From Mycobacteriales bacterium (GTDB taxonomy: Bacteria; Actinomycetota; Actinomycetes; JAFAQI01), in contig DASTWK010000017.1 in the NCBI GenBank assembly GCA_035776655.1, forward strand, positions 11,940 to 75,939: 64,000 bases of DNA, given 5' to 3'. Positions 44,364 through 52,595 of the stretch are shown piece after piece; position 1 is the first letter of the stretch; every line of letters starts with the position of its first letter. A program made the position numbers and the translations under genes. The notes under the pieces are model-generated. The model worked only from the letters and a program-made list of their open reading frames with translations. It did not search any database and was not told the origin of the DNA.

Positions 44364-45593
44364 TCAGGCGGCGGCGCGTTCCCGCAGGTCGGTCGGCGCG
44401 GCTGCCTCGGCCGGCGCCGGTCGCGTGGTGCCGGCGACGTGACCCCGCAGCAACCGGATGAGCTTGCGCGGGCTCGTCGCCGTCTCCGCGACCGTGGCGG
44501 CCCTGACCGCAACGTCGTTGGGGAGCGCGAGCCGGAACACCTTCGACCACGCTGAGGCGACCTGCGTCGGCAGCGAGCCGACGGTGTAGCTCAGGCCGTA
44601 CCGGTCGAACAGCTCACGCACCTTGGGCGCGATCTCCTGGTAACGGTTGCTCGGCAGGTCGGGGAACAGGTGGTGCTCGATCTGGTAGGAGAGGTTGCCG
44701 GTCATCAGGTGCAGCGCCGGCCCACCGCTGATGTTGGCGGACCCGAGCATCTGCCGCAGGTACCACTCGCCACGGCTTTCGCCCTCGATCGAGCTCTTCT
44801 GGAAGGTCTCGACCCCTTCGGGGAAGTGGCCACACATGATGACCGAGTGGGTCCAGAGGTTGCGCACGAGGTTTGCGGTGACGTTGGCGGCGAACGTCGT
44901 GACCGCTGAGGGGCCGGACAGCAGCGGGTGCACGACGTAGTCGCGGGTCGCCTGGGTGCGGATCTTCGTCAGCACCTGCTTGGCCTGGCGGCGGAACTCC
45001 GGGTCGTCTTTGCGGCCGGGGAAACGCTTGGGGAGCTCGAGGTCGTAGACCGCGATCCCGTACTCGAACAGGCACGCGTTCAGGAAGTTCCACAGCGGTT
45101 GGCCGAGGTGGAACGGACTCCAGCGCTGGTCCTCGTCGACGCGCATGATGCCGTAGCCCAAGTCGTTGTCCCGGCCGAGCACGTTCGTATAGGTGTGGTG
45201 CAGCTCGTTGTGGGAGTGCTTCCACTGCGCGGCCGGGGAGGCGTTGTCCCACTCCCATGTCGTGGAGTGGATCTTCGGGTCGCGCATCCAGTCCCACTGG
45301 CCGTGCATCACGTTGTGCCCGATCTCCATGTTCTCGAGGATCTTGGACACGGACAGCCCGACCGTGCCGGCGAGCCATGCCGGCGGGAACAGCGACGCCA
45401 GCAACACCGCACGGCTGGCGAGCTCGAGCTTTCGTTGCGCGTCGATGACCCGGCGGATGTAGGCCGCGTCGCGTTCGCCGCGGCTCGCCACCACCTGGTC
45501 ACGGATGGCGTCGAGCTCGCGACCGAGGTTCTCGATGTCGGCGGGAGTGAGGTGCGCAATCGGGTTGGACGTCTTGTTCTGCAGAGCGGTCAT
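44364..45593 (-). CDS. Acyl-CoA/fatty acid desaturase (DesA3-like)
   Basis: His boxes EIGHNVMH, WKHSHNELHH, QIEHH. Confidence 0.92.
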   Translation of the reverse strand: MTALQNKTSNPIAHLTPADIENLGRELDAIRDQVVASRGERDAAYIRRVIDAQRKLELASRAVLLASLFPPAWLAGTVGLSVSKILENMEIGHNVMHGQWDWMRDPKIHSTTWEWDNASPAAQWKHSHNELHHTYTNVLGRDNDLGYGIMRVDEDQRWSPFHLGQPLWNFLNACLFEYGIAVYDLELPKRFPGRKDDPEFRRQAKQVLTKIRTQATRDYVVHPLLSGPSAVTTFAANVTANLVRNLWTHSVIMCGHFPEGVETFQKSSIEGESRGEWYLRQMLGSANISGGPALHLMTGNLSYQIEHHLFPDLPSNRYQEIAPKVRELFDRYGLSYTVGSLPTQVASAWSKVFRLALPNDVAVRAATVAETATSPRKLIRLLRGHVAGTTRPAPAEAAAPTDLRERAAA

Positions 45594-45622
45594 GGCTGCT
45601 CCTGTGGTCGGTGTGGTCAGGG

Positions 45623-46714
45623 TCAGAGGTCGAGCTGGCAGGCACCGGCGGCGGCGGAGACGCAGGTCTGGACGCGCACGCCGTCACCCGGGACAGCGGT
45701 GGTGAGGTCGCCGGTCCGCAGGTCACGCACGGCGCCCTCTCGCAGCGGGACCACGCAGCCGAAGCAGATGCCCATCCGGCAGCCCGAGGGCATCAGCACG
45801 CCGGCCGCTTCGCCGGCGTCGAGGATCGGGGTGCGGCCGTCGGCTTCCACCGACACTCCGCTCCGGGCAAACGTCACGGTGCCGCCGTCGCCGGCGACGA
45901 CCACCGTCGGACGGAACCGCTCCGTGTGCAGGCGGGCGCCGATGCCGAGCTGCTCCCAGTGGTCGCCGAGTGCGTCGAGCATCGGCGTGGGCCCGCAGGC
46001 CCAGGTCTCGCGGGCGGCCAGGTCGGGCACCAGGGCGTGCAGCTCCTCGACCGTGAGGATGCCCTCGCTGTCGGTGTGTCGCTCGACCAGCCGGATCCGG
46101 CCGCGGCGAGCCAGCTGGCGCAACTCGCCGCCGAAGATGGCATCGGCCGCGGTCGGCGCCGAGTGGACGACGACGACGTCGGGCAGCTCGTCGAGCGCGT
46201 GGCGCAGCATGCCCATCACCGGCGTGATGCCGCTGCCCGCGGTGACGAACAGCACCTGTCGCGGTCGTGGCGTCGGCAGCACGAACTCGCCGGTCGCCTG
46301 GTCGAGTTGGACGATCGTGCCGCTCCGCGCCCGGCGTACCAGATAAGAGCTGACCTTGCCGCCGTCGATCGCCTTGACGGTGATCGTCAGGCAGCCATCG
46401 GGTCGCTCCGGAGACGAGGTGAGGGAATAGGCCCGCCACTGTCGGACGCCGTCGACGTCGACGCCGATGCGCACGTACTGCCCCGGCACGTGCGGGCGCC
46501 AGCCGCGACCGGGCTCGAGGACGAGCGTCACCGCATCGCGGGTCTCCGGATGCGACGCGACGATGCGGGCGCGCAGCTGTGCGGGTGACCGCAGCGGACT
46601 GAGCACGTCGAGGTAGTCCGCCGGCACCAGAGGTGTCGTCACCAGCTCGGCCAGCCGCAGCACCCGCTCGAGCAGCGGTCGAGCGGGTGCAGCCGGCTCG
46701 GCGGTCATCGTCAT
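45623..46714 (-). CDS. Ferredoxin reductase partner of the desaturase (FNR + 2Fe-2S)
   Basis: RAYSLTS, AGSGITP, CGP, GCRMGICFGC, QTC. Confidence 0.92.
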   Translation of the reverse strand: MTMTAEPAAPARPLLERVLRLAELVTTPLVPADYLDVLSPLRSPAQLRARIVASHPETRDAVTLVLEPGRGWRPHVPGQYVRIGVDVDGVRQWRAYSLTSSPERPDGCLTITVKAIDGGKVSSYLVRRARSGTIVQLDQATGEFVLPTPRPRQVLFVTAGSGITPVMGMLRHALDELPDVVVVHSAPTAADAIFGGELRQLARRGRIRLVERHTDSEGILTVEELHALVPDLAARETWACGPTPMLDALGDHWEQLGIGARLHTERFRPTVVVAGDGGTVTFARSGVSVEADGRTPILDAGEAAGVLMPSGCRMGICFGCVVPLREGAVRDLRTGDLTTAVPGDGVRVQTCVSAAAGACQLDL

Positions 46715-46801
46715 GACTCCATGCTGATGCGCCAGGCGAGGTAAAGTCCTGGCCGTGAGGCGTGAAGAATCGTGGCTCCGCTGTTCGGAGCGAACAATCT
46801 G

Positions 46802-48061
46802 ATGCGAAAGCGGTCAGCGGACAGCCCGACCGCTCCCGGTGCGGCCGGGCTGGCGCTGGACCCGGGCATCGCGGCCGGGCTGCGGGGGCGACTGCCCGCC
46901 GTCGCCGAGCTCACCGTGGCGGCCGTGACCGCCGAGGTACCGGGGTACGCCGGGGCGCTCAGCGGCGAGATGGGCGCCAACATCGAGCAGGCGGTGCAGA
47001 TGGCCCTCGGCGGGTTCCTGCGACTGGCCGAGCAGCCGCGCGGCGCGGATGCGAGCACCCCGCTGCAGCCGGCGCGAGAGGCGGCGTATGCCCTCGGCCG
47101 GGGCGAAGCGCGCAGTGGTCGCACGATGGACGCGCTGCTGGCGGCCTATCGGGTGGGGGCGCGGGTCGCGTGGCGCGAGCTGTCGGCCATCGCGGTGGAG
47201 CACGGGCTGCCGGCACCGCGGGTGGCGAAGTTCGCGGAGCTGGTCTTCGCCTACATCGACGAGCTGTCCGCGGCCAGCGTCGCCGGGCATGCTGACGAGC
47301 TGGCCGCCGCCGGTCGGGTGCGCCGGCGCTATCAGGAGCGGCTGGCGCAGAACCTCGTCAGCGGGGCACCGGCAGACGTTGTCATCGCCAGCGCCGAGCG
47401 GGCGGAGTGGCCGGCACCGCGGACGCTCACCGCCCTGCTCGTGCCGTCGGCCGAGGTCGCGCGCGTGCTGTCGCGGCTCGACCCACGGACCCTGGAGCTG
47501 GCGGGGGACCAGGCCGGACTGGAGGCGAGCGAGGACCTCACCGTGCTGCTGGTGCCGGACGCCGACGGAGCGCGCCGGCCAGTGCTGATGCGCACGTTGC
47601 GCGGGCGCCCGGTCGCGGTAGGACCGGCCCGGCCCTGGGCCGAGGTGCGGGCGTCGTACCTGCGCGCGGTGCGCGCGCACCGGCTGTTCGGTCCGCGCGA
47701 CAGCGATCCGGCGTCGGGGACGAGCGTCTCCGTGCGGCCGCTGGACACCGACGAGCTGCTGCCCGAGCTGGTGCTCGGGGCCGACACCGAAGCCCTCGCC
47801 GATCTGCGGGAGCGGGCGCTGGCGCCGCTGGCGGAGCTGCGGCCGGAGGCCGCCGGCCGGTTGGCCGAGACGTTGGCCTCGTGGCTGCTGCACCTCGGGC
47901 GACGGGACGAGGTCGCGGCCGAGCTGCACGTGCACCCACAGACGGTGCGTTACCGGATGACTCAGCTGCGCCAGCTCTATGGCGATCGGCTGAACGAGCC
48001 GCGCACCGTGCTGGAGCTCACCGTCGCGCTGGGTCTCGATCTTCGGCCCGAGATCGGGTGA
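46802..48061 (+). CDS. PucR/CdaR family transcriptional regulator
   Basis: C-terminal HTH AAELHVHPQTVRYR; divergent from the desaturase pair; start 46772 or 46802. Confidence 0.88.
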   Translation: MRKRSADSPTAPGAAGLALDPGIAAGLRGRLPAVAELTVAAVTAEVPGYAGALSGEMGANIEQAVQMALGGFLRLAEQPRGADASTPLQPAREAAYALGRGEARSGRTMDALLAAYRVGARVAWRELSAIAVEHGLPAPRVAKFAELVFAYIDELSAASVAGHADELAAAGRVRRRYQERLAQNLVSGAPADVVIASAERAEWPAPRTLTALLVPSAEVARVLSRLDPRTLELAGDQAGLEASEDLTVLLVPDADGARRPVLMRTLRGRPVAVGPARPWAEVRASYLRAVRAHRLFGPRDSDPASGTSVSVRPLDTDELLPELVLGADTEALADLRERALAPLAELRPEAAGRLAETLASWLLHLGRRDEVAAELHVHPQTVRYRMTQLRQLYGDRLNEPRTVLELTVALGLDLRPEIG

Positions 48062-48159
48062 GAGGCGCGTGGCCGGCCTGCCGGTTCGGTCCGGCTCCGG
48101 CGGCTACGCTCCTGCGGGACTGCCGCTTGCTGCCTACGTTGTTCGGTCTGGAGGTCACC

Positions 48160-48624
48160 GTGCTTGCTCCGGGGACGAGAGCTCCCGACTTCCGGCTGCC
48201 GGACCACACCGGGCGGGTGTGGCAGCTCGACGAGCTGCGGGGCACGTGGGTGCTGCTGTGGTGGTATCCGAAGGCCAGCACCCCCGGTTGAACGATCGAA
48301 GGTCAGGCGCTGCGGGACAGGGCCAAGGAGTTTGCCGCCGTGAGCTGTGTCGTGCTCGGTGCCTCGTTCGACACCGTGGAGGAGAACCGTGCCTTCGCTG
48401 AGGCGCAGAACTTCGCGTTTCCGCTGCTGTCCGACGTCGACCGGACGGTCGGAGCCGCCTATGAGGTGGCGCGCCCGGCGCAGGACCAGTTCGCCGCATT
48501 CCCGTTGCGGGTGTCCTATCTCATTGATCCGGACCGGCTGATCCGACGTACTTATGCGGTCACCGACGTCGCCAACCATGCGGACGAGGTGCTCGCCGAT
48601 CTCGCCGCGTTGCAGCACGAGTGA
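48160..48624 (+). CDS. bcp: Bcp/PrxQ-type peroxiredoxin with in-frame TGA (48289-48291) at the peroxidatic Cys position, probable selenocysteine
   Basis: RBS GGAGG + GTG 48160; APDFRLPD...WWYPKASTPG*TIEGQALRD...GASFD...FPLLSD...RVSYLIDP is one continuous frame of 154 codons. Confidence 0.82.
48306..48324 (+). promoter_or_regulatory. Candidate bacterial SECIS hairpin
   Basis: GGC-G-CTG [CGGGA] CAG-G-GCC: 6-bp stem, 5-nt G-containing loop starting 21 nt after the TGA (folded by eye). Confidence 0.55.
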
Positions 48625-49385
48625 CGCAGCCGCCGCGCCCCACGCGCGTAGCGGCAGCGACCGGCGGCGACCGTCAAAGCGACGCGCAGGAGCTCACCGA
48701 GCGGGTCGCGCAGGTTGCTGGCGGTGCGGCTCGAGCGGCGGTGCTCGGCGTCAGTGACGGCCTCGTCACCAACGTCGCACTGATCCTCGGGGTGGCCGGG
48801 GCGAACGCCTCGGCGGCAAGCGTGCGGCTGGCCGGCTTCGCCAGTCTCATCGCCGGCGCTCTGTCGATGGCGGCCGGAGAGTGGATCTCGATGCGCAGCC
48901 AGGTCGAGATCTATCGCGGCGTGCTGGCCGAGATCAACCAGCTGGTGCAACGGAACCCGCGGCTGGTGCTCGACGAGCTGACCGATCGACTGGAAGCGGC
49001 CGGCTTCGGACGGACCACGGCGCAGCTCGCCAGCACCGAGCTGCCGCTGGACGAACCGCGGTTCCAACGGTTCACGGCCCGCACGGTGTTCGGCCTCGAT
49101 CCGGACCAGTTGGGCTCGCCGCTCGCCGCCGCGGGCAGCTCGTTGCTCTTGTTCGCCGTGGGCGCGCTGGTGCCGCTGCTGCCGTGGTTCTGGCTGGCGG
49201 ACGGCCTTGCCACCGCGGTGTCGGTCGCGGCGACGGCGGTTGCCAGCGCGATCGTGGGGGCTTACGTCAGCCGCAGTGGTGGGCGCGGCAGCGCGGTCGG
49301 GGCGTTGCGCCAGGTGGTCGTCGTGGCGGCTGCCGCCGCCGTCACCTATGGCATCGGCACGGCGTTCGGGTCGGTCATCTCCTGA
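48621..49385 (+). CDS. VIT1/CCC1 family Fe/Mn transporter
   Basis: AAVLGVSDGLVT, GALSMAAGEWIS, GALVPLLP; GTGA overlap with the peroxiredoxin gene. Confidence 0.9.
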   Translation: MTQPPRPTRVAAATGGDRQSDAQELTERVAQVAGGAARAAVLGVSDGLVTNVALILGVAGANASAASVRLAGFASLIAGALSMAAGEWISMRSQVEIYRGVLAEINQLVQRNPRLVLDELTDRLEAAGFGRTTAQLASTELPLDEPRFQRFTARTVFGLDPDQLGSPLAAAGSSLLLFAVGALVPLLPWFWLADGLATAVSVAATAVASAIVGAYVSRSGGRGSAVGALRQVVVVAAAAAVTYGIGTAFGSVIS

Positions 49386-49463: not shown

Positions 49464-52400
49464 GTGTTCTCACGTTCACGCCGTGCTGCCTTCGTTTCGA
49501 CGCTCGCCGCCACAATGGCGGTTGCCGTCGCCGCCCCGGTCATCGCCTGTCCGCCGGTGTTGCCCGGCACCCGCGACGCCCAGCGGGTCTATGGGGAGCG
49601 CATCACGCACATCGGCGTGACGTCCCCGGCCGCGCTCGTCGGCACGACGCGGCTGACCGCGGCACCGGCCGGCACCCGGCCGCGGCTGACCACCTTCTCC
49701 GGGCGGTTGACCCGCAACCCCGGCAGCAACAACGCGGCGGCCTTCCAGACGCCGGCTGACGCCTGCGCTCGTCCGTCCTGCATCGAGCTGCGGGTGCGGG
49801 TGCCCAAGAGCGCGCACCGGCAGACGCTCTACGCCCGCGCAGCGTGGGCGGCAACGACTCAGTACGTGCACATCTGGGGTGTCGATCCCAGCGGTCGGGT
49901 CGTCGGCAAGTCCGATGTCGCCTCCAGCTTCGACAAGCGCGTGGGCAACGCCGACGTCGCGCCGCTCGCCGAGTTCACGGTGCCCAACCCGAAGCCGGGC
50001 CTGTGGCGCATCCAGGTGCGTGCGGTGTTCGGCTACCGCATCCCGGTGCGTGCCGCGGTCGCGTTGGTCGCCGCGCCGGCGCTGCAGCTGCCGCAGCAAA
50101 ACGTCATCCAGCTGGCGAACCACTACCTGACCCAGACGTTGAACTACAACATCGTGTTCGTGAACCGCCGCTGGTCGAAGGCGGAGATCGCGGCGTTCCG
50201 CGCCTCGATGCCGACCGAGTATCGATCCGCGGTGTTGGAGAAGCAGTTCGACGACGGGTGCTCCAACCCGGCCGACGACCAGGCCTCCCAGTCCGTCAGC
50301 CAGTCCGGCGGCACACTCGTCAACTGGGGCACGTCCTACTACTGCGGAACCGAGACCGGCGGCAGCGGCAACGTGCCGTACTTCGAGCCGTTGCACTACA
50401 AGATCCAGTACCGCTTCCTGCAGGCGGACAGCACCTGGACCAACGATCTGTTCGCGACGATGCGCAAGCACACCACCATCGACCAGCCGTTCGCCGTGCT
50501 GCCCCCGGTCGGTGGCCGGCGGCAGACGCAGGGTCAGTACCTGGAGCAGTACGACGCGCAGGACGGCAAGGCCATGCGCGGTCCGGCGCACGCGGTGACT
50601 GATCCCAGCAAGGGCGACAAGATCGACGCATTCGCGGTCGAGGACTGGATCTTCAACCACCGGTACGACGCGAAGTATCGCCACTCGTTCAAGGACGTCG
50701 AAACCGGGGCGCTGCACTCGGGCGCGTTCATCACGCCGGACCCGAACGCCTACTTCGACCCGTTCTACACCGCGACCGGCAAGCGCGACCTCAACCGCAT
50801 GCCGCAGGGACCGACCACGTCGTACACGTTCTTCGCGATGGACACCTTCGACGGGCCGCTCGCGACGAAGTACTTCCGGCCCAACGCCTACCACTACTTC
50901 GACGTCAGCAAGCACATGGTCGACCCCGACCTGCACGAGCCGTCCGGTCCCGACTTCGCGCGGGCCTGGGGCGGTCGCTATCGCTTCTTCATGCACGACC
51001 TCGGTGCCGGGCCCAATGCGTACGAGAGCGCTGACACCGCGCTGACGCAGAACTACGGCGGCTCCGCCAGCGGACCGTTCGGCGACCCGCCGATCTGGGA
51101 CTACGACAACAACCCGCAATGGCAGGGCAAGCTCGCCGCCAACACTGCGCGCGACGCGCGGGTGTGGCTGTTCGCGCGGTTCCTCGGCGCCTACCTCTAC
51201 CGGCCGGTGCCGGCCGACGTCTACGCACTGGCCGACACCAACTGGCAGGACTGCTACTCCAACCCGCAGTGCTCCAAGGAGGGCATCAGCTACACCGACC
51301 TGCACAAGATCTACGACGAGTCCTACGTCAAGCGCAACCTCGGTGCGGCGCTGCCCGGCGCCACGTTCAACAGCCTCACCGGCACCAAGGGGTTCGTCGC
51401 CTACCGGCATCTCGGGTGCGCGGCCAACCGGGCGGTGGCTGCCCCGGACACCTCGCTCGTCGACAGCAGCGAGCAGGCGCAGTCACCGGTGCTGGTGCCG
51501 GACCCGGAGTGTGTCGGCAAGAAGTCCGATCCGCTGCAGCAGCTGCTCGAGATCGCCAAGGCGCGCGGCGACGAGCTCGCCGGCGGTGTGAACGACGCAG
51601 CGGCGAACCCGGCGGTCGTGCGGCACTACGTCGAGGAGCACCGGGCGCAGCTCGCTCCGCAGCCGGCCGGGCAGTTCACGCTGACGAACATCTCGGTGGT
51701 CTGGCCGGGTGCGACGACGTGGGCGCTGCCCGCCGTCGTCGGTGGCATCGCGATGGGCACGCCCAACGGAGAGGGCTGGGGCAACCTCAACAACGTCAAC
51801 GACCGGGTGAAGACCTCACAAGCGACGGACTGTGCGAAGAGCCTGCCGATCGCGCCGGGCTGTAACGGCGTGCCGCCGATCTCCAGCGGGTCGGGCTTCA
51901 GCTACACGATCGAGCACGAGTCGAGCCACTTCCTCGGTCTCACCCACCCGCACGACTTCATCGTGGTGGCCAGGGCGACCGGTGCCGGGCAGCAGCCGTG
52001 GCACTACTACGGCACCGGGTTCTCCAAGTACGCCGACTTCTCGATGGCTCCGACGACGTATGCGGGTGCGTTCGCGCCGTACAGCGTCCTCGATCAGGAC
52101 ATCATCCAGAAGGGCCACACGGCGGAGTACCTGCGCCAGATGCAGGACTACCTCGCCGACGCCTACGTCCGGGACGGCATGGCGGGACGAGTGCGCCCAT
52201 CGGGAGCGACACAGCACAAGGTCGACCAGGCGCACAACTGGATGGAGCTCGGCTCGAGCCTGTTCCGGTGTGGCGACTACCTGCACGCGGAGCGGGCGAT
52301 GCGCAACGCGTCGCTGGCTGCGCAGGGTGTCTTCGGGCCGGTGGTGGCGCCACGCCAGCTGAAGCCGGGCGAGAAGGTGCTGTTCCGCGTGGACCCGCAA

Positions 52401-52595
52401 CCGGTCTACGGGCCGGACGGCAAGCGGGTGGCCGGCTGCACTCCGCCGCGGGCCGCTGCCGCGGCGGGGGACATCGGTGGCATCGGGGCGCCGCTGGCGC
52501 CGGCGCTGCCGTTGGGTCTGGCGCTGATGGCCGCGTTCGGTGTGGCAGTGGTCCGCCCGCTGCGGCACCGGGGGCTGCGCCCCGCGCTCGTCTGA
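49464..52595 (+). CDS. Large secreted, C-terminally anchored protein with a metzincin zinc motif
   Basis: Signal peptide, PPC-like beta domain (PGLWRIQV), HESSHFLGLTH (HExxHxxGxxH) at 51915-51947, C-terminal TM followed by a basic tail. Confidence 0.75.
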   Translation: MFSRSRRAAFVSTLAATMAVAVAAPVIACPPVLPGTRDAQRVYGERITHIGVTSPAALVGTTRLTAAPAGTRPRLTTFSGRLTRNPGSNNAAAFQTPADACARPSCIELRVRVPKSAHRQTLYARAAWAATTQYVHIWGVDPSGRVVGKSDVASSFDKRVGNADVAPLAEFTVPNPKPGLWRIQVRAVFGYRIPVRAAVALVAAPALQLPQQNVIQLANHYLTQTLNYNIVFVNRRWSKAEIAAFRASMPTEYRSAVLEKQFDDGCSNPADDQASQSVSQSGGTLVNWGTSYYCGTETGGSGNVPYFEPLHYKIQYRFLQADSTWTNDLFATMRKHTTIDQPFAVLPPVGGRRQTQGQYLEQYDAQDGKAMRGPAHAVTDPSKGDKIDAFAVEDWIFNHRYDAKYRHSFKDVETGALHSGAFITPDPNAYFDPFYTATGKRDLNRMPQGPTTSYTFFAMDTFDGPLATKYFRPNAYHYFDVSKHMVDPDLHEPSGPDFARAWGGRYRFFMHDLGAGPNAYESADTALTQNYGGSASGPFGDPPIWDYDNNPQWQGKLAANTARDARVWLFARFLGAYLYRPVPADVYALADTNWQDCYSNPQCSKEGISYTDLHKIYDESYVKRNLGAALPGATFNSLTGTKGFVAYRHLGCAANRAVAAPDTSLVDSSEQAQSPVLVPDPECVGKKSDPLQQLLEIAKARGDELAGGVNDAAANPAVVRHYVEEHRAQLAPQPAGQFTLTNISVVWPGATTWALPAVVGGIAMGTPNGEGWGNLNNVNDRVKTSQATDCAKSLPIAPGCNGVPPISSGSGFSYTIEHESSHFLGLTHPHDFIVVARATGAGQQPWHYYGTGFSKYADFSMAPTTYAGAFAPYSVLDQDIIQKGHTAEYLRQMQDYLADAYVRDGMAGRVRPSGATQHKVDQAHNWMELGSSLFRCGDYLHAERAMRNASLAAQGVFGPVVAPRQLKPGEKVLFRVDPQPVYGPDGKRVAGCTPPRAAAAAGDIGGIGAPLAPALPLGLALMAAFGVAVVRPLRHRGLRPALV

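What the first reader, a model, noticed from the sequence alone, without database searches (positions are those of the whole stretch)
48160..48624. Hidden selenoprotein: Bcp/PrxQ peroxiredoxin with UGA at the peroxidatic cysteine
Seen: the ORF track splits this gene, but GGAGG + GTG 48160 opens one frame in which the Prx motif PxxxTxxC reads PKASTPG-TGA-TIE (48289-48291, codon 44). The frame continues with intact Prx features (GASFD, FPLLSD, catalytic Arg in RVSYLIDP) to a stop overlapping the next gene. A random nonsense mutation landing exactly on the catalytic Cys while both halves stay intact is unlikely. Knowledge: Sec replaces catalytic Cys in thiol oxidoreductases and Sec-Prx are known in some bacteria. 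There is no resolving residue at the CxxxxC position. Caveat: AAGGAG precedes GTG 48340, so a C-terminal fragment could be translated separately.
Basis: partly seen in the sequence, partly recalled or inferred. Interest (0 to 1): 0.85.

Follow-up and report, generated by a model that had tools for sequence, protein, structure and literature searches.

The report
Selenocysteine Bcp peroxiredoxin, known family
The "stop" codon inside this small peroxide-destroying enzyme gene is almost certainly read as selenocysteine, which makes it a real but ordinary member of a long-known selenoprotein family that gene callers routinely cut into fragments.

Summary
Window 48160-48624 (+) is one 154-codon Bcp/PrxQ peroxiredoxin frame with TGA (48289-48291) at the peroxidatic-Cys codon (PKASTPG-U-T).

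It is a genuine selenoprotein gene:
- The same genome has tRNA-Sec, selD, selA and selB, plus a formate dehydrogenase with a canonical in-frame TGA.
- 73 of 80 and 62 of 80 homologous loci from many phyla carry TGA at this codon. The rest have TGC or TGT.
- Close full-length Cys forms (60-67% identity) exist.
- The 42 codons upstream of the TGA are under purifying selection, like the rest of the gene.
- A hairpin lies 14 nt after the UGA (48306-48324). It is built with a rare AGG codon, where Cys forms with the same peptide use CGN.

The model (pLDDT 97.9) matches M. tuberculosis BcpB.

It is not new. "Peroxiredoxin (Prx), COG1225 (Bcp), TxxU" has been a catalogued prokaryotic selenoprotein family since 2005-2006.

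Local details:
- There is no resolving Cys, so it is a one-Sec type.
- The stop overlaps the start of a VIT1 iron-exporter gene, and this pairing is conserved in actinobacterial Sec and Cys forms.
- The SECIS hairpin takes three different registers across the family.

Public databases hold only a 94-aa fragment of this gene.

The parts
48150..48154 (+). Shine-Dalgarno-like GGAGG, 5 nt before the GTG start
   Evidence: Read directly. The start position agrees with the M-L-x-P/E-G N-termini of homologs.
48160..48624 (+). Sec-containing Bcp/PrxQ peroxiredoxin coding sequence: 154 codons plus stop TGA at 48622-48624. Active-site residues are P37, T41, U44 and R117.
   Evidence: PF00578 E 7e-32. 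Bcp is the best NCBIfam hit. The AlphaFold model has pLDDT 97.9 and best matches M. tuberculosis BcpB 5epf at TM 0.89. dN/dS upstream of the TGA is 0.2-0.46, similar to downstream.
48289..48291 (+). UGA codon 44, read as selenocysteine at the peroxidatic position
   Evidence: TGA at the same codon in 5 of 5 close homologs in related genomes. Also TGA in 73 of 80 and 62 of 80 loci from genome contigs, with the rest TGC/TGT. Sec machinery is present.
48306..48324 (+). SECIS-like hairpin: arms GGCGCUG / CAGGGCC, loop CGGGA (48313-48317), one G.G mismatch (48309/48321). It starts 14 nt after the UGA.
   Evidence: Hairpin energy is -8.5 kcal/mol, against -10.2 to -12.9 in relatives. In the 14 nearest Sec forms, 84.7% of cells pair in this register against 32-59% in slid controls. 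The 3' arm uses AGG (48319-48321), which is 2.0% of Arg codons in this genome. Four Cys forms with the same LRDR peptide use CGN, which cannot pair. Sister clades show strong covariation in their own register.
48621..49385 (+). VIT1/CCC1-family membrane protein gene (254 aa), with its start overlapping the peroxiredoxin stop (GTGA). Probable operon partner.
   Evidence: PF01988 E 1.6e-50. The same gene lies directly downstream in 8 actinobacterial Sec loci and, with a 4-nt overlap, in 4 of 4 Cys-form loci examined. No terminator-like site lies between the two genes.

Best explanation
This is an intact gene for a 154-residue Bcp/PrxQ-type peroxiredoxin whose peroxidatic residue is selenocysteine.

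Decoding. During translation, SelB carrying Sec-tRNA(Sec) is recruited to the UGA at 48289-48291 by the hairpin 14 nt downstream (48306-48324). Sec is inserted and the ribosome continues to the real stop at 48622-48624.

Catalysis. The selenolate of U44 sits in the usual P37/T41/R117 pocket and attacks H2O2 or an organic hydroperoxide to give a selenenic acid. No resolving Cys is present at +5 (Gln49) or at the alpha-3 position (Ala). The oxidised Sec is therefore most likely reduced directly by an external thiol partner such as thioredoxin or, in an actinomycete, a mycothiol/mycoredoxin-type system. That would make it a one-Sec peroxiredoxin.

Operon. The gene is translationally coupled to a VIT1-family metal exporter, so the pair probably acts together against peroxide/iron (Fenton) stress.

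Shown here:
- gene integrity;
- conservation of the UGA;
- presence of the decoding machinery;
- the fold;
- conservation of the operon.

Inferred:
- actual Sec insertion;
- the identity of the reductant;
- the function of the VIT1 partner.
For: 1. Domain and fold. PF00578 E 7e-32. The nearest solved relatives are BcpB, Bcp and PrxQ. The model has pLDDT 97.9.
2. Machinery in the same assembly. tRNA-Sec scores 80.2 bits, with an 8/5 cloverleaf and UCA anticodon, next to selD. selA and selB are adjacent.
3. A second selenoprotein. FdhA has one TGA in the canonical ARI-U-HS context, so Sec decoding is in use.
4. Close relatives. All five homologs at 56-68% identity, from four related genomes, have TGA at the same codon. 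All of those genomes have selA; 16 of the other 36 relatives do (hypergeometric P about 0.03, my arithmetic).
5. Wider family. TGA occurs in 73 of 80 and 62 of 80 loci, with TGC/TGT in the rest. Full-length Cys forms at 60-67% identity exist. A tree of 224 sequences needs at least 7 well-supported Sec/Cys switches, 22 by parsimony.
6. Selection. dN/dS of the 42 codons before the TGA is 0.2-0.46, like the downstream part.
7. Hairpin. It is conserved in position, built with the rare AGG codon where Cys forms use CGN, and shows compensatory changes in sister clades (88.8% paired, 19 double-change cells, 0 of 500 shuffles reach the score).
8. Literature. Prx (COG1225 Bcp, TxxU) is a listed selenoprotein family (PMC9312934; PMC13188914; PMC1794560; PMC2398784).
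Against: - No direct evidence of Sec insertion or of expression.
- The window's own hairpin has a G.G mismatch and is weaker than in relatives (-8.5 against -10.2 to -12.9 kcal/mol).
- The 65-nt region does not fold better than shuffles (z +1.5).
- Within the window's own 14-sequence subgroup, covariation is not above the shuffle control (132 of 500). Support for that exact helix therefore rests on position, codon choice and analogy with sister clades.
- The loop reads CGGGA, not the commoner CGUGA.
- The assembly is a 69.5%-complete MAG, so a consensus error at 48321 cannot be excluded.
- No Rfam family matches.
Confidence: 0.93

Rival explanations
1. The UGA is decoded, but mostly as cysteine or another residue rather than selenocysteine. 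Possible routes are Cys loaded on tRNA-Sec when selenium is scarce, or near-cognate read-through. The enzyme would then be functionally a Cys-Bcp made by an unusual route.
For: Sec and Cys forms interchange often in this family, so Cys is catalytically acceptable. The window's hairpin is the weakest of its group. Cys insertion at Sec codons under selenium limitation is known in other systems (my knowledge, not tested here).
Against: A complete selD-selA-selB-tRNA-Sec set and a canonical Sec-FdhA are present. No second credible UCA tRNA exists: the ARAGORN call on C24 has a poor cloverleaf and did not appear among the Rfam tRNA-Sec matches, and the C52 hit is tRNA-Ser. Keeping a costly TGA plus hairpin across more than 130 sequences is hard to explain if Cys were the product.
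Confidence: 0.04
2. The UGA terminates translation. The locus would then be a split gene: a 43-residue N-terminal peptide, plus a separate C-terminal fragment started at GTG 48340 behind AAGGAG.
For: AAGGAG (48325-48330) followed by GTG 48340 is present. Public gene calls record exactly this 94-aa product (P0052).
Against: The fragment lacks the active site and three core strands of the fold. GTG 48340 is not conserved in relatives. The upstream 42 codons are under purifying selection in the same frame. Truncated products of 104-115 aa in databases begin at different, non-homologous starts, as expected of gene-caller artefacts.
Confidence: 0.02
3. The gene is a pseudogene, or the TGA is a sequencing or assembly error replacing TGC/TGT.
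For: The assembly is an incomplete MAG. TGA differs from TGC/TGT by a single base. Reads could not be checked.
Against: The identical TGA occurs in independent assemblies from many phyla, including complete genomes of cultured Myxococcota. There are no other frame disruptions. Purifying selection acts on both halves. The genome has the Sec trait.
Confidence: 0.01

Closest known systems
Prokaryotic selenoprotein family 'Peroxiredoxin (Prx)', COG1225 (Bcp) / PF00578, motif TxxU (Zhang and Gladyshev catalogues; PMC1794560, PMC2398784, PMC9312934, PMC13188914)
   Same: Same domain, same Sec position (T41-x-x-U44), co-occurrence with Cys homologs, a SECIS hairpin directly after the UGA, and frequent Sec/Cys switching.
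   Different: Nothing that defines the family differs. The local peculiarities are an actinomycete soil-MAG host, the absence of a resolving Cys, coupling to VIT1, and this clade's own hairpin register.
PrxU of Eubacterium acidaminophilum (Sohling et al. 2001; NCBIfam NF040737), the experimentally shown Sec-peroxiredoxin
   Same: A peroxiredoxin with Sec at the peroxidatic position.
   Different: It belongs to a different Prx subfamily. The window protein scores 51 bits against a cut-off of 270 and is about 80 residues shorter, so it is not an ortholog.
Mycobacterium tuberculosis BcpB (PDB 5epf) and the Xanthomonas/Xylella PrxQ structures
   Same: Best fold and sequence matches: TM 0.89 at 39% identity, and phmmer E 2e-23. 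Same P/T/Cp/R active-site arrangement.
   Different: Those enzymes use Cys. BcpB has CxxxxC and X. campestris PrxQ has a resolving Cys in helix alpha-3. The window protein has Sec and neither resolving Cys.
One-Cys peroxiredoxins of actinomycetes such as M. tuberculosis AhpE
   Same: A small Prx with no resolving Cys (fold match at TM 0.84-0.89). This is a plausible precedent for recycling by an external thiol system.
   Different: It is a different Prx subfamily with lower sequence similarity (E about 1e-7) and uses Cys rather than Sec.

Membership tests
Selenoprotein family Prx (COG1225 Bcp / PF00578, TxxU) | AhpC/TSA (Bcp-type) domain over the whole protein | tested here: met
   PF00578 E 7e-32, profile positions 1-123 of 124. 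Bcp PRK09437 is the best NCBIfam hit. The fold matches BcpB and PrxQ.
Selenoprotein family Prx (COG1225 Bcp / PF00578, TxxU) | In-frame UGA at the peroxidatic position of the PxxxTxxC motif | tested here: met
   P37-K-A-S-T41-P-G-U44. The same column is Cys in Cys forms.
Selenoprotein family Prx (COG1225 Bcp / PF00578, TxxU) | UGA conserved in orthologs and alternating with Cys codons | tested here: met
   TGA in 73 of 80 and 62 of 80 loci, with the rest TGC/TGT. Cys forms at 60-67% identity exist.
Selenoprotein family Prx (COG1225 Bcp / PF00578, TxxU) | Bacterial SECIS stem-loop shortly after the UGA | tested here: inconclusive
   A hairpin is present at 48306-48324 in the position conserved among relatives, and a rare AGG codon builds it. 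However, it carries a G.G mismatch and its own subgroup shows no significant covariation. Covariation is strong only in sister clades.
Selenoprotein family Prx (COG1225 Bcp / PF00578, TxxU) | Host has the Sec-decoding trait (selA, selB, selD, tRNA-Sec) | tested here: met
   All four were found over their curated cut-offs. The tRNA-Sec cloverleaf was checked. FdhA with a TGA is present.
Selenoprotein family Prx (COG1225 Bcp / PF00578, TxxU) | Selenium actually incorporated in the protein | not testable with these tools
   This needs 75Se labelling or mass spectrometry.
PrxU (NCBIfam NF040737) | Score above the curated cut-off of the equivalog model | tested here: not met
   51 bits against a cut-off of 270.
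Atypical 2-Cys BCP/PrxQ | Resolving Cys five residues after the peroxidatic residue (CxxxxC) or in helix alpha-3 | tested here: not met
   Position +5 is Gln49. The residue aligned with X. campestris C84 is Ala. The only Cys, C63, lies at the start of a core strand and is absent from L022 and L026.

The most novel reading that the evidence does not exclude
In Actinomycetota this peroxiredoxin, in either Sec or Cys form, may be one half of a fixed, translationally coupled two-gene module with a VIT1-family Fe/Mn exporter. One gene would remove peroxide and the other would remove the Fenton metal.

On this reading, the one-Sec, resolving-Cys-free chemistry has been swapped in and out repeatedly within that module. 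Each acquisition of Sec would have re-invented the SECIS hairpin in a different register inside the same GxGFRD/QALRDR coding stretch.
Probability: 0.3. Interest if true: 0.4.

Novelty: new member of a known kind. Interest (0 to 1): 0.18.

Why it matters
The value is mainly practical. The gene is recorded in public protein collections only as a 94-aa fragment, and its relatives appear as fragments of 104-115 aa. As a result, antioxidant capacity and selenium use of these soil actinomycetes are under-counted.

The finding adds a lineage (an uncultured family labelled Mycobacteriales) and a one-Sec subtype to a known selenoprotein family. It also flags a conserved peroxiredoxin-VIT1 gene pair that could be tested as a peroxide/iron defence unit. 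It does not change any concept.

Tried and rejected
- Rfam scan of 48100-48700 at E up to 10: no match. Bacterial SECIS elements of this type appear not to be modelled there.
- Single-sequence folding of 65 nt after the UGA: no better than shuffles (z +1.5). Thermodynamics alone therefore does not support a SECIS in this GC-rich context.
- Covariation in the window's own hairpin register: not significant (132 of 500 shuffles). Only the sister register is significant.
- A second ARAGORN 'tRNA-SeC' on C24:2590-2679: poor cloverleaf, and it did not appear among the Rfam tRNA-Sec matches. The Rfam hit on C52 (48.7 bits) is tRNA-Ser(UGA). Both were rejected as extra UGA decoders.
- Literature searches for 'bacterioferritin comigratory protein' or 'PrxQ' together with selenocysteine found no dedicated paper. 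The link to the known family came from the table in PMC9312934, which lists Prx as COG1225 (Bcp) with motif TxxU.
- A literature search for a described peroxiredoxin-VIT1 operon found nothing relevant.
- Genome-wide UGA reassignment was rejected. The gene's own stop and the overlapping operon junction use TGA as a stop.

Full report
**Observation**

- GGAGG lies at 48150-48154, then a 5-nt spacer, then GTG at 48160.
- One frame runs from 48160 to the stop TGA at 48622-48624. Its single in-frame TGA is at 48289-48291, codon 44, in the context WWYPKASTPG-U-TIEG.
- Read through, the 154-residue product matches the AhpC/TSA domain end to end (PF00578, E 7e-32).
- Its best NCBIfam hit is Bcp (PRK09437, 97 bits, below the equivalog cut-off of 140). 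The Sec-peroxiredoxin PrxU model scores only 51 bits against a cut-off of 270.
- The stop overlaps the GTG of the next gene (GTGA at 48621-48624).

**The host genome**

The window lies in a 2.37-Mb, 95-contig assembly with 71% G+C. Estimated completeness is 69.5%. Two same-family relatives are labelled 'Mycobacteriales bacterium' soil MAGs.

The genome has the complete Sec trait.
- tRNA-Sec scores 80.2 bits and has an 8-bp acceptor stem, a 5-bp T stem, a long extra arm and a UCA anticodon. It lies next to selD on contig 87.
- selA and selB are adjacent on contig 71.
- A formate dehydrogenase alpha subunit on contig 1 carries one in-frame TGA in the canonical ARI-U-HS context. Sec decoding is therefore already needed by this organism.
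- Four other AhpC/TSA paralogs in the genome have no internal stop.
- UGA is not reassigned genome-wide, because this gene itself ends with TGA.

**Comparative evidence for the UGA**

- Among 40 related genomes, five homologs at 56-68% identity in four genomes all have TGA at the same codon. Three distant homologs at 34-37% identity have Cys.
- All five TGA-bearing genomes, including the window's own, have selA above its cut-off, against 16 of the other 36 (hypergeometric P about 0.03, my arithmetic).
- Two scans of one-genome-per-species contigs gave TGA in 73 of 80 loci (7 TGC/TGT) and in 62 of 80 loci (17 TGC/TGT, one unresolved).
- These loci come from Actinomycetota (including Acidimicrobiia), Acidobacteriota, Binatia, Myxococcota and Planctomycetota. 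They include cultured Archangium gephyra, Pyxidicoccus fallax and a Myxococcus strain.
- The protein database holds full-length Cys forms at 60-67% identity (WWYPKAQTPGCTVEGQ). It also holds many fragments of 94-115 aa at 65-88% identity, which are Sec forms truncated by gene callers. The window's own product appears there as a 94-aa fragment.
- A tree of 224 distinct sequences (131 Sec, 93 Cys) needs at least 7 well-supported Sec/Cys changes, and 22 by parsimony.
- The 42 codons upstream of the TGA have dN/dS of about 0.2-0.46 against ten relatives, similar to the downstream part. Both halves are therefore translated in one frame.

**The recoding signal**

A hairpin follows the UGA after 14 nt. 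Its arms are GGCGCUG (48306-48312) and CAGGGCC (48318-48324), and its loop is CGGGA. It has one G.G mismatch and an energy of -8.5 kcal/mol, against -10.2 to -12.9 in the closest Sec forms.

The evidence for this exact helix is mixed.
- The 14 nearest Sec forms pair in 84.7% of cells in this register, against 32-59% when the partner is slid.
- Covariation in this subgroup is not above the shuffle control (132 of 500).
- Single-sequence folding is unremarkable, and Rfam has no match.

Two further observations support it.
- The 3' arm depends on Arg54 being AGG, which is 2.0% of Arg codons in this genome. Four Cys-form genes that encode the same L-R-D-R peptide use CGG, CGA or CGC, which cannot pair.
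- Sister clades have their own hairpins in the same coding stretch. One has a CGUGAUC loop and shows 88.8% pairing, four pairs with compensatory changes, 19 double-change cells and 0 of 500 shuffles reaching the score. It includes two same-order relatives. Another is GGUYGCGG-GUU-CCGCGACC, with G-C to C-G swaps where the peptide changes from GF to AL.

Seven Cys forms from other phyla lack such hairpins. The family therefore carries a SECIS in three different registers. The window's version is the weakest of its group but lies in the expected place.

**Protein and mechanism**

- The AlphaFold model, built on a 71-sequence alignment, has pLDDT 97.9 and pTM 0.92.
- It best matches M. tuberculosis BcpB (5epf, TM 0.89, 39% identity), followed by other Bcp/PrxQ structures and the one-Cys AhpE. 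The sequence search agrees.
- P37 and R117 are invariant, and T41 and position 44 are nearly invariant.
- Position +5 is Gln. The residue aligned with the alpha-3 resolving Cys of Xanthomonas PrxQ is Ala.
- The single Cys, C63, starts a core strand and is missing from two Sec relatives.

The most likely mechanism is therefore a one-Sec cycle. The selenolate attacks the peroxide, and the resulting selenenic acid is reduced by an external thiol system. This mechanism is inferred, not shown. Many homologs in other phyla are UxxxxC instead, and Binatia members have a Cys at +8.

**Genomic context**

- The next gene (48621-49385) is a VIT1/CCC1-family membrane protein (PF01988, E 1.6e-50).
- The same gene follows the peroxiredoxin in 8 actinobacterial Sec loci.
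- It also follows, with a 4-nt overlap, in all four Cys-form loci fetched.
- No terminator-like site separates the two genes.
- Upstream on the same strand is a PucR-type regulator.

Members of the VIT1 family export Fe or Mn (my knowledge). A peroxide/iron defence pair is therefore a reasonable but untested reading. I found no paper describing it.

**Comparison with what is known**

- The 2022 and 2026 reviews of prokaryotic selenoproteins list 'Peroxiredoxin (Prx)', COG1225 (Bcp) / PF00578, motif TxxU (PMC9312934; PMC13188914).
- The family had 12 members in the 2006 genome survey, with five Cys-to-Sec events (PMC1794560).
- It had 253 members in the GOS metagenomes (PMC2398784) and 91 in 78 organisms in 2016 (PMC5029168).
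- The window gene meets every sequence-level criterion of that family. It is not an ortholog of the experimentally characterised PrxU.
- Earlier notes of this scan on look-alike genes in other genomes reached the same conclusion. I list them as agreeing, not as evidence.

**Verdict**

It is a new member of a known kind. Interest is low. The modest additions are the one-Sec subtype in an uncultured actinomycete lineage, the conserved Prx-VIT1 coupling, and the shifting SECIS register.

Noticed in passing
window 48621-49385 (and L021, L029-L034, L038, L191-L194): A VIT1/CCC1-family gene overlaps the peroxiredoxin stop by 4 nt. The pair is conserved in actinobacterial Sec and Cys forms alike, but is not seen next to the homologs from other phyla. 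It may be a peroxide/iron defence operon.
   Followed up: partly
G000 contig C1:7270-10299 (-), outside the window: A formate dehydrogenase alpha subunit (968.8 bits when its pieces are joined) with one in-frame TGA in the ARI-U-HS context. It is a second, canonical selenoprotein of this genome.
   Followed up: partly
L027-L186, the 48 nt after the TGA: The SECIS hairpin of this one orthologous family occurs in three different registers within the same coding stretch. The loops are CGKGA, CGUGAUC and GUU. The Ilumatobacteraceae versions have a bulged C.
   Followed up: partly
L059, L065, L066, L073, L074 and other Binatia loci: Binatia Sec forms read TPG-U-TIEGRGFCD, with a Cys at +8 instead of the usual +5 resolving position. 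Most Acidobacteriota and Myxococcota forms are UxxxxC.
   Followed up: no
window 46772-48061 (+): A PucR-type HTH regulator (PF13556) ends 98 nt upstream of the peroxiredoxin start on the same strand. Whether it controls the Prx-VIT1 pair is unknown.
   Followed up: no
window 44364-46714 (-): A fatty-acid desaturase gene lies next to a gene for an FAD/NAD-binding reductase with a 2Fe-2S ferredoxin domain, on the opposite strand. This looks like a desaturase with its own electron donor.
   Followed up: no
window 49464-52595 (+): A 1043-aa ORF with no Pfam match at E 1e-3. Another first-stage note also flagged it as an orphan surface protein.
   Followed up: no
G000 contig C24:2590-2679: ARAGORN calls a second 'tRNA-SeC (tca)' here. 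The cloverleaf is poor, and the site did not appear among the Rfam tRNA-Sec matches. It is probably a false positive.
   Followed up: yes
G006 contig C7:25468-26729 (related genome): selA matches in two separate pieces below the cut-off, which may indicate a decaying Sec trait. The Sec trait is patchy within the family (selA over its cut-off in 21 of 41 genomes).
   Followed up: no
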